Shown: piece by piece, positions 48,229 through 48,295 of the stretch
Layout: each line of letters begins with the position of its first letter
How positions within the stretch are numbered: the first letter of the stretch is position 1
IMG/VR virus record: IMGVR_UViG_2687453522_000001
Length of the DNA stretch: 64,000 nt
Source of the DNA: a virus
Lineage: Duplodnaviria > Heunggongvirae > Uroviricota > Caudoviricetes
Direction: 5' to 3' (one strand)
Program-made: the position numbers and the translations under genes
Notes under the pieces: model-generated
What the model saw: the letters and a program-made list of their open reading frames with translations, nothing else
Told to the model about the DNA's origin: nothing
Database searches by the model: none

Positions 48229-48245
48229 ATTGCTCTAATAATTCC
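48229..48245 (+). promoter_or_regulatory. C1-type operator
   Basis: ATTGCTCTAATAATTCC, two nt after the preceding stop codon. Confidence 0.5.
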
Positions 48246-48256
48246 ATATTTTTAAA

Positions 48257-48283
48257 ACGTGATGTACACTCATCACGTTTTTT
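48257..48283 (+). terminator. rho-independent terminator
   Basis: ACGTGATG-TACACT-CATCACGT followed by TTTTT. Confidence 0.55.
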
Positions 48284-48295
48284 ATTAGAGCAATC
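48282..48295 (-). promoter_or_regulatory. inverted partial C1-type operator
   Basis: TTATTAGAGCAATC is the reverse complement of GATTGCTCTAATAA; forms a palindromic pair with the operator at 48229. Confidence 0.4.

What the first reader, a model, noticed from the sequence alone, without database searches (positions are those of the whole stretch)
48229..48295. Palindromic pair of C1-type operators bracketing a terminator, and a regulon of at least eight operator copies
ATTGCTCTAATAA and its reverse complement flank a strong hairpin terminator between two operons. Matches to the 17-bp ATTGCTCTAATAAATTT motif also occur at 10831, 12569, 29203, 32724, 50370 and 60063 (weaker at 14334), mostly at operon starts or overlapping stop codons. 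This maps the repressor regulon directly from sequence and shows operators at unusual intragenic or stop-codon positions.
Basis: partly seen in the sequence, partly recalled or inferred. Interest (0 to 1): 0.4.

Follow-up and report, generated by a model that had tools for sequence, protein, structure and literature searches.

The report
Known phage P1 C1 operators Op86a/Op86b
The flagged inverted repeat is the already annotated pair of C1-repressor binding sites (Op86a/Op86b) of a P1-like phage-plasmid, flanking a conserved hairpin in front of the pmgR gene, so it is a correct rediscovery of textbook P1 biology and not something new.

Summary
ATTGCTCTAATAA at 48229 and its reverse complement ending at 48294 flank an 11-bp-stem hairpin (48254-48281). 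The 17-bp motif is about 20-fold enriched in the window: 10 hits against 0.53 expected, or 12 PWM hits of at least 15 bits against 0.55.

The window is a P1-like phage-plasmid, matching P1 coordinates 38191-93840 at 88-99% identity by block (99% around the module). The pair is exactly what the P1 and P7 GenBank records annotate as monovalent C1 operators OpmgRa/OpmgRb (formerly Op86a/Op86b) with predicted promoter PpmgR.

What I added:
- The hairpin is conserved with two compensatory stem changes in lineages only about 73% identical, while both operator cores stay invariant.
- Module length is fixed at 65-66 nt.
- Published P1vir RNA-seq shows a 4- to 7-fold step up from pmgQ to pmgR at 10 min, which fits a promoter inside the module.
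- Termination by the hairpin is plausible but unproven.

Operators abutting or overlapping upstream stop codons is true for 6 of the 12, and it shows in the P1 annotation. Verdict: already known, low interest.

The parts
48229..48245 (+). C1 operator Op86a (OpmgRa), ATTGCTCTAATAATTCC
   Evidence: Identical to the P1 protein_bind feature at 82152-82168. PWM score 22.2 bits.
48278..48294 (-). C1 operator Op86b (OpmgRb), ATTGCTCTAATAAAAAA
   Evidence: Identical to the P1 protein_bind feature at 82201-82217, minus strand. PWM score 20.8 bits.
48254..48281 (+). Hairpin with an 11-bp stem and 6-nt loop, followed by a T-run (TTTTTT, 48278-48283): candidate intrinsic terminator for the upstream pmgN-pmgQ operon
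   Evidence: Folds at -13.4 kcal/mol, z = -5.5. Across 23 variants 97.2% of cells are paired, with 2 compensatory pairs and all one-sided changes G.U on the + strand.
48230..48258 (+). Predicted sigma-70 promoter PpmgR (-35 TTGCTC at 48230-48235 inside Op86a; -10 TAAAAC at 48253-48258, overlapping the 5' arm of the hairpin)
   Evidence: Annotated as 'predicted' in the P1 record. Not called by the consensus scan. The RNA-seq step up from pmgQ to pmgR at 10 min supports a promoter somewhere in the module.
47526..48227 (+). pmgQ (hdmD), last gene of the upstream operon; its stop codon ends 2 nt before Op86a
48309..48527 (+). [quoted passage not shown]
   Evidence: PMC9024508
48529..49791 (+). pmgS (shtB)
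10831..10847 (+). Op51-equivalent operator (Oc4) in an immI region diverged from P1
   Evidence: 24.0 bits
12569..12585 (+). Op53 (OrepL; kilA-repL promoter)
14334..14350 (+). Op55 (Orlf) remnant; only ATTGCTCTAAT is retained, and P1 homology ends at 14344
29203..29219 (+). Op68 (Odmt)
32725..32752 (.). Bivalent operator Op72ab (Obanab): Op72a at 32725-32741 (+) and Op72b at 32736-32752 (-); the dmt stop codon lies inside Op72a
44605..44621 (-). Op82 (O26)
45512..45528 (-). Op83 (Oppp), CATGCACTAATTAATTT
   Evidence: 19.9 bits
50370..50386 (+). Op88 (OpmgT); its first base is the last base of the pap stop codon
60063..60079 (+). Op94 (Olpa), controls the late-promoter activator gene lpa
63394..63999 (-). 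3' part of the c1 repressor gene (residues 82-283, 99.5% identical to P1 C1); the rest lies beyond the window end

Best explanation
The window is a P1-like (Punavirus) phage-plasmid, and 48229-48294 is its Op86a/Op86b module: two monovalent 17-bp binding sites for the monomeric C1 repressor, in inverted orientation 49 bp apart, between pmgQ and pmgR.

Shown:
- Identity with the annotated P1 and P7 operators.
- Strong enrichment of the motif.
- Invariance of both operator cores in lineages about 73% identical that also keep a C1 homologue.
- A hairpin between the sites that is constrained as a + strand RNA structure.
- A transcription-unit boundary at this spot in published RNA-seq.

Inferred mechanism:
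- In the lysogen, C1 (helped by the co-repressor Lxc) sits on Op86a and covers the TTGCTC -35 hexamer of the early sigma-70 promoter PpmgR.
- A second C1 on Op86b, about +13 to +29 of the predicted transcript, reinforces repression as a roadblock or through C1-C1 contact.
- The hairpin plus U-run terminates transcripts coming from the upstream pmgN-pmgQ operon.
- The predicted PpmgR start falls in the hairpin loop, so transcripts started there lack the 5' arm and read on into pmgR-pmgS-pap.
- When C1 is inactivated by Coi or Ant, the unit is expressed early.
For: - Identity: 99-99.9% to P1-like phages over 4 kb. Synteny with P1 38191-93840. The P1 record annotates OpmgRa/OpmgRb and PpmgR at the homologous bases, and P7 annotates Op(sht[a]/[b]). 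The module sequence is identical in the window, P1 and P7.
- Consensus ATTGCTCTAATAAATTT, asymmetric, 22 operators in P1: PMC8546580.
- Enrichment.
- Cognate repressor: C1 residues 82-283 are encoded at the window end.
- Selection: in Cronobacter phage JK004 (72.8% identical over the region; C1 76% identical) and in Salmonella plasmids, both 13-mers are unchanged while the flanks diverge. By my own arithmetic, 0.73^26 is about 3e-4.
- Hairpin; covariation (2 compensatory pairs, 97.2% of cells paired against 39-72% for slid controls, 14 one-sided cells all G.U on the + strand).
- Module length is 65-66 nt in all 25 variants.
- Promoter: P1vir RNA-seq log2 values at 10 min are pmgO-pmgQ 6.9-7.4, then pmgR 9.02, pmgS 9.99, pap 8.45. 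The step is +2.0 in wild type and +2.8 in dksA (PMC8201110 Table S1).
- Other C1-controlled units (ant1, kilA, hrdC, pmgT) are likewise high at 10 min, while late genes sit at 3-5.
Against: - PpmgR is only a predicted promoter with 8 of 12 consensus matches. Its -10 TAAAAC lacks the conserved final T, it was not picked up by the consensus scan, and in JK004 the -10 becomes TGAAGC.
- No transcription start site data were found.
- Termination is not demonstrated. The RNA-seq change from pmgQ to pmgR at 30 min is only -0.85 log2 and pmgS is back at the pmgQ level. The GC-containing core stem is 7 bp at -9.1 kcal/mol.
- The two compensatory changes occur in related lineages and may be as few as one or two events.
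- Six distinct single substitutions break a pair in individual contigs.
- I could not read Lobocka et al. 2004 or the primary binding papers, so experimental C1 binding at Op86a/b specifically is not verified here.
Confidence: 0.85

Rival explanations
1. The operators are real, but the hairpin is not a terminator. It would be a structural element of another kind, for example a spacer that fixes the distance and phase of two C1 monomers for cooperative binding or a short loop, or a processing or stability element in read-through RNA. The whole 66-bp imperfect palindrome could also simply reflect an ancient inverted duplication of an operator-containing segment.
For: - Module length is strictly 65-66 nt in all 25 variants, while the 12-nt spacer varies in sequence.
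- RNA-seq shows no clear drop after pmgQ at 30 min.
- The terminator scan did not call the hairpin.
- From my own knowledge, not checked here: C1-mediated DNA looping has been reported for the c1 region.
Against: - Compensatory and G.U-compatible changes point to pairing in + strand RNA rather than a mere length requirement.
- The stem is followed directly by six Ts, the canonical terminator layout.
- The hairpin sits right after a stop codon at the end of a five-gene operon.
Confidence: 0.2
2. Op86b serves a separate leftward (antisense) promoter, so the pair controls divergent or convergent transcription and not one rightward unit.
For: Op86b is on the minus strand, and in several P1 promoters the operator's TTGCTC serves as the -35 hexamer.
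Against: - Reading the minus strand by eye, 17 nt downstream of TTGCTC lies AGTGTA, with no -10-like hexamer, and no -35 lies upstream of TCTAAT.
- No minus-strand promoter was called near the module.
- No leftward gene lies upstream; the neighbours pmgQ and pmgR are both rightward.
- The P7 record says Op(sht[b]) regulates the same sht operon.
Confidence: 0.04
3. The motif copies are chance matches in AT-rich intergenic DNA and have no common function.
For: Weak PWM hits of 7-13 bits occur at chance frequency: 29 observed against 29.4 expected at 7 bits or more.
Against: - 12 sites of at least 15 bits against 0.55 expected; 10 against 0.53 by mismatch search, with 0 of 100 shuffles reaching the observed count.
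- The sites coincide with curated operators.
- The cores are invariant at 73% overall identity.
Confidence: 0.01

Closest known systems
Phage P1 operators OpmgRa/OpmgRb (formerly Op86a/Op86b) with predicted promoter PpmgR; P7 Op(sht[a])/Op(sht[b])
   Same: Sequence identical over the whole 66-bp module, same flanking genes (pmgQ/hdmD upstream, pmgR/shtA downstream), same orientation and spacing.
   Different: Nothing in the module itself. The surrounding genome is a mosaic P1 relative with replaced immI and rlf segments and a 4.7-kb insertion in the pmgT region.
Bivalent C1 operators of P1 (Op72ab at ban, Op99ab at c1)
   Same: Two C1 sites in inverted orientation forming a palindrome; same 17-bp consensus.
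   Different: In the bivalent operators the two sites overlap with an 11-bp offset (window 32725 and 32736). Op86a/b are 49 bp apart, with a hairpin and a predicted promoter -10 between them, and are annotated as two monovalent sites.
Intrinsic (rho-independent) terminators of Enterobacteria
   Same: Stem-loop followed by a U-run, placed just after the last stop codon of an operon, with the stem maintained by compensatory changes.
   Different: Only 4 G-C pairs. An A-tract upstream makes it partly bidirectional. It overlaps a predicted promoter and is bracketed by repressor sites. Termination is not shown.

Membership tests
C1-controlled operators of phage P1/P7 | Match to the asymmetric 17-bp consensus ATTGCTCTAATAAATTT | tested here: met
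   Both sites match positions 1-13 exactly and differ at 3 of the last 4 low-information positions. PWM scores of 22.2 and 20.8 bits fall within the 5.8-27.2 range of the 20 annotated P1 operators. Consensus as quoted in PMC8546580.
C1-controlled operators of phage P1/P7 | Positional orthology with curated operators in the reference genomes | tested here: met
   Base-for-base identity with P1 82152-82168 and 82201-82217, and with P7 84533-84549 and 84582-84598, all annotated as protein_bind 'phage repressor C1'.
C1-controlled operators of phage P1/P7 | Cognate C1 repressor encoded by the same genome | tested here: met
   Residues 82-283 of C1 (99.5% identical to P1) are encoded at 63394-63999 (-). 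The N-terminal 81 codons lie beyond the window end.
C1-controlled operators of phage P1/P7 | Overlap with or close proximity to a promoter that C1 represses | tested here: inconclusive
   Only a predicted promoter (TTGCTC-17-TAAAAC), which the consensus scan did not call. RNA-seq shows a 4- to 7-fold step up across the module at 10 min, consistent with a promoter, but no start site is mapped.
C1-controlled operators of phage P1/P7 | Binding by purified C1 (footprint or EMSA), enhanced by Lxc | not testable with these tools
   Needs experiment.
Bivalent C1 operator (Op72ab / Op99ab type) | Two inverted sites overlapping with an 11-bp offset | tested here: not met
   The Op86a and Op86b starts are 49 bp apart (48229 and 48278), whereas Op72a and Op72b sit at 32725 and 32736.
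Intrinsic terminator | Stable stem-loop immediately followed by a U-run on the transcribed strand | tested here: met
   11-bp stem and 6-nt loop at -13.4 kcal/mol, z = -5.5, then TTTTTT, of which 4 Ts also pair with the A-tract. The tool's consensus scan missed it because the maximal stem uses up the T-run.
Intrinsic terminator | Structure maintained in evolution | tested here: met
   2 of 11 pairs have changes on both sides; 97.2% of cells are paired against 39-72% for slid controls; the covariation score exceeds all 500 shuffles. Caveat: the compensatory events are few and phylogenetically linked.
Intrinsic terminator | Transcripts end there in vivo or in vitro | tested here: inconclusive
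   Gene-level RNA-seq at 30 min gives pmgQ 11.66, pmgR 10.81, pmgS 11.70. There are no 3'-end data.

The most novel reading that the evidence does not exclude
The Op86 module could be a composite insulator in which one 66-bp palindrome does three jobs:
- An intrinsic terminator stops read-through from the pmgN-pmgQ operon.
- A C1-repressed promoter has its -10 overlapping the 5' arm and its start in the hairpin loop, so its own transcripts cannot form the terminator.
- Two inverted operators clamp the element as DNA, and as RNA they lengthen the terminator stem by 12-13 bp (-26.9 against -13.4 kcal/mol).

The strictly fixed 65-66-nt length would reflect these combined constraints. As far as I could see this is not spelled out in the GenBank annotation, though it may be discussed in the 2004 genome paper, which I could not read.
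Probability: 0.25. Interest if true: 0.3.

Novelty: already known. Interest (0 to 1): 0.1.

Why it matters
It matters little for discovery. The C1 operator consensus, the dispersed regulon and this specific pair have been curated in the P1 and P7 genome records since about 2004. As quality control it shows that the first-stage reader can recover a real repressor regulon from raw sequence. The small additions here could help anyone engineering P1-derived phage-plasmids or using C1/operator parts as insulated expression switches. They are the covariation support for the hairpin, the invariance of the operator cores at 73% divergence, the fixed module length, and the RNA-seq step at the module.

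Tried and rejected
- Chance occurrence of the motif: rejected by shuffles and Markov simulations.
- A leftward promoter using Op86b: no -10 or -35 matches on the minus strand (and reading the sequence).
- Operator-terminator-operator as a general layout of internal P1 operators: a hairpin-plus-T-run scan within about 120-140 nt of all ten operator loci found this layout only at Op86.
- Extra, unannotated operators in the segments that differ from P1: four extra PWM hits of at least 12 bits (9298, 10775, 16945, 38726) against about 2.5 expected by chance, so not significant.
- Reading Lobocka et al. 2004 (PMC523184 or by DOI) and searching for 'Op86' or 'OpmgR' in the paper library: not held, no hits. 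I therefore could not check whether the hairpin is in that paper's terminator list or whether C1 binding to Op86 was shown experimentally.
- CRISPRi data (PMC10695390): roadblocks in pmgO through pmgQ are not polar on the essential pmgR, but the pmgR knock-down itself also scored non-essential, so this says little.
- Pfam scans of PmgQ and PmgR gave no families.
- The first sandbox attempts failed because the P1 loci were not yet exported, and the first PWM script timed out.

Full report
**Observation.** The sequence at 48229-48294 reads ATTGCTCTAATAA-TTCCATATTTTT-AAAACGTGATG-TACACT-CATCACGTTTT-TTATTAGAGCAAT. The two 13-mers are exact reverse complements. The inner 11-bp stem with its 6-nt loop folds at -13.4 kcal/mol (z = -5.5), and the whole palindrome folds at -26.9 kcal/mol (z = -5.9). 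The GC-containing core of the stem is 7 bp at -9.1 kcal/mol, so the hairpin is moderate, not 'strong', and the simple terminator scan did not report it.

The 17-bp motif ATTGCTCTAATAAATTT has 10 matches with at most 3 mismatches in the window, against 0.53 expected. The 13-mer has 8 matches with at most 1 mismatch, against 0.14 expected.

**What the window is.** A 4-kb piece around the finding is 99.9% identical to Escherichia phage vB_EcoM-813R1, 99.0% to phage P1 and 98.7% to P7. Whole-window megablast shows colinearity with P1 coordinates 38191-93840. It is interrupted by replaced segments at 8745-12080, 14344-17023, 26535-27409, 33663-35276 and 35904-37001, and by a 4.7-kb insertion at 51259-55972. 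The window is therefore about two thirds of a mosaic P1-like phage-plasmid.

**What the finding is.** The curated P1 record AF234172 annotates, at the homologous bases:
- 'monovalent C1-controlled operator OpmgRa; corresponds to former Op86a; controls expression of pmgR and pmgS';
- 'OpmgRb; former Op86b' on the opposite strand;
- a predicted sigma-70 promoter PpmgR, whose -35 hexamer TTGCTC lies inside Op86a and whose -10 lies at the start of the hairpin.

The P7 record annotates the same two sites as Op(sht[a]) and Op(sht[b]). The 66-bp module is identical in the window, P1 and P7.

| Window position | P1 operator |
|---|---|
| 10831 | Op51 / Oc4 (flanks diverged) |
| 12569 | Op53 / OrepL |
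| 14334 | Op55 / Orlf |
| 29203 | Op68 / Odmt |
| 32725 | Op72a |
| 50370 | Op88 / OpmgT |
| 60063 | Op94 / Olpa |

These assignments rest.

A PWM built from the 20 operators annotated in P1 finds 11 named sites of at least 19 bits, plus one unnamed 15.5-bit hit. That makes 12 sites of at least 15 bits, against 0.55 expected. A recent paper states that P1 has 22 C1 operators with the asymmetric consensus ATTGCTCTAATAAATTT (PMC8546580). The cognate repressor is present: residues 82-283 of C1, 99.5% identical to P1, are encoded at 63394-63999 on the minus strand, and the window ends inside the gene.

**Conservation.** The module region matches in 20 phage records and 686 plasmid records, and the exact operator pair occurs in 118 IMG/VR contigs. 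I found 25 distinct sequence variants, all 65 or 66 nt long.

The informative cases are those found by flank similarity and not by the operator pattern itself. These are Cronobacter phage JK004 (72.8% identical over the region, with a C1 homologue 76% identical) and a group of Salmonella plasmids. In them both operator cores are unchanged, while the spacer, the loop and the coding flanks diverge.

The stem shows two positions changed on both sides (G-C to A-U, and A-U to G-C). All 14 one-sided changes give G.U on the + strand. Overall 97.2% of cells pair, against 39-72% when the partner columns are slid, and the covariation score exceeds all 500 shuffles. This supports a structure formed by + strand RNA. 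The caveats are that the compensatory events are few and phylogenetically linked, and that six singleton substitutions break a pair.

**Function.** Published P1vir RNA-seq (PMC8201110, Table S1) gives these log2 values at 10 min in wild type:

| Unit | Genes and values |
|---|---|
| Upstream of the module | pmgO 7.39, pmgP 6.99, ppp 6.95, pmgQ 7.05 |
| Downstream of the module | pmgR 9.02, pmgS 9.99, pap 8.45 |
| After Op88 | pmgT 9.72 |

- The step across the module is +2.0 in wild type and +2.8 in the dksA host.
- Other C1-controlled units are similarly high at 10 min (ant1 10.0, kilA 8.5, hrdC 9.4), whereas late morphogenesis genes sit at 3-5.
- This is good independent evidence that a promoter active early lies between pmgQ and pmgR, as the annotation predicts.
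- The promoter itself is weak on paper: TTGCTC-17-TAAAAC was not called, and the -10 is not conserved in JK004.
- At 30 min the values are pmgQ 11.66, pmgR 10.81 and pmgS 11.70. That neither proves nor excludes termination at the hairpin.
- If PpmgR starts about 7 nt after its -10, the start falls in the hairpin loop. Such transcripts would then lack the 5' arm and escape the terminator. This is inference.
- Op86b would lie at about +13 to +29 of that transcript, where bound C1 could act as a roadblock or a cooperative partner. This too is inference.

**Stop-codon positions.**
- The dmt stop TAA is formed by positions 8-10 of Op72a.
- The last base of the pap stop is position 1 of Op88.
- The stops of pmgQ and pdcB end 2 nt before Op86a and Op94.
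- The stop of repL ends 4 nt before Op55, and that of pmgM ends 7 nt before Op83.

It reflects the tight packing of co-directional early units in P1 and can be read directly from the 2004 annotation. A scan around all operator loci found the operator-hairpin-operator layout only at Op86.

**Comparison with known systems and verdict.** The module is a member of the P1/P7 C1 operator family. The consensus, orthology and cognate-repressor criteria are met, and binding is not testable here. It is not a bivalent operator of the Op72ab type, because the spacing is 49 bp and not 11 bp. It has the anatomy and evolutionary signature of an intrinsic terminator, but termination is unproven. Nothing here departs from published P1 biology. 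The finding is a correct rediscovery: novelty 'already known', interest low.

The only mildly new points are the covariation support for the hairpin, the fixed module length, and the reading of the module as a terminator with a promoter nested inside it. These would need 5'- and 3'-end mapping to confirm.

Noticed in passing
window 14334-14350 and 14344-17023: Homology with P1 stops at 14344, inside the Op55 (Orlf) operator, of which only ATTGCTCTAAT survives. The P1 rlfA/rlfB segment is replaced by other DNA that includes a ParA/AAA_31-like ATPase ORF at 14595-15650. An operator sits at a mosaic junction.
   Followed up: partly
window 51259-55972: A clean 4.7-kb insertion relative to P1 position 85182 (inside pmgT). 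It carries two Ead/Ea22-like ORFs (51809-52534 and 52832-53389) and a DUF551 ORF (53665-54264).
   Followed up: partly
window 9298-9314 (+): An unnamed operator-like site, AATACACTAATGAATCA, scoring 15.5 bits. It lies inside a DUF4760-domain ORF (8890-9783), in a segment that replaces the P1 sim/immI-proximal region. About 0.55 such hits are expected by chance per window, so it may be nothing.
   Followed up: no
window 12499-12528: A 12-bp-stem hairpin (-19.4 kcal/mol) with its T-run on the minus strand, between the end of the ant-like ORF (12490) and Op53 (12569).
   Followed up: no
window 63394-63999 (-) compared with phage vB_EcoM-813R1: The window's C1 fragment is 99.5% identical to P1 C1. 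Yet vB_EcoM-813R1, the best phage match for the Op86 region, has a C1 only 87.7% identical and matched in two pieces. This is another sign of mosaicism among P1-like elements.
   Followed up: no
phage D6 (MF356679), outside the window: D6 gave no C1 tblastn match (E-value limit 1e-5) and no match to the Op86 module region, sharing only ppp with this stretch of the window. Repressor and operator module are absent together.
   Followed up: no
L002 2628-2645 (P1 AF234172, Omat/Op2b): The GenBank feature for Omat is 18 nt long and on the minus strand, but the operator consensus reads on the plus strand (CATGCACTAATAAATAT). This looks like a small annotation slip.
   Followed up: no
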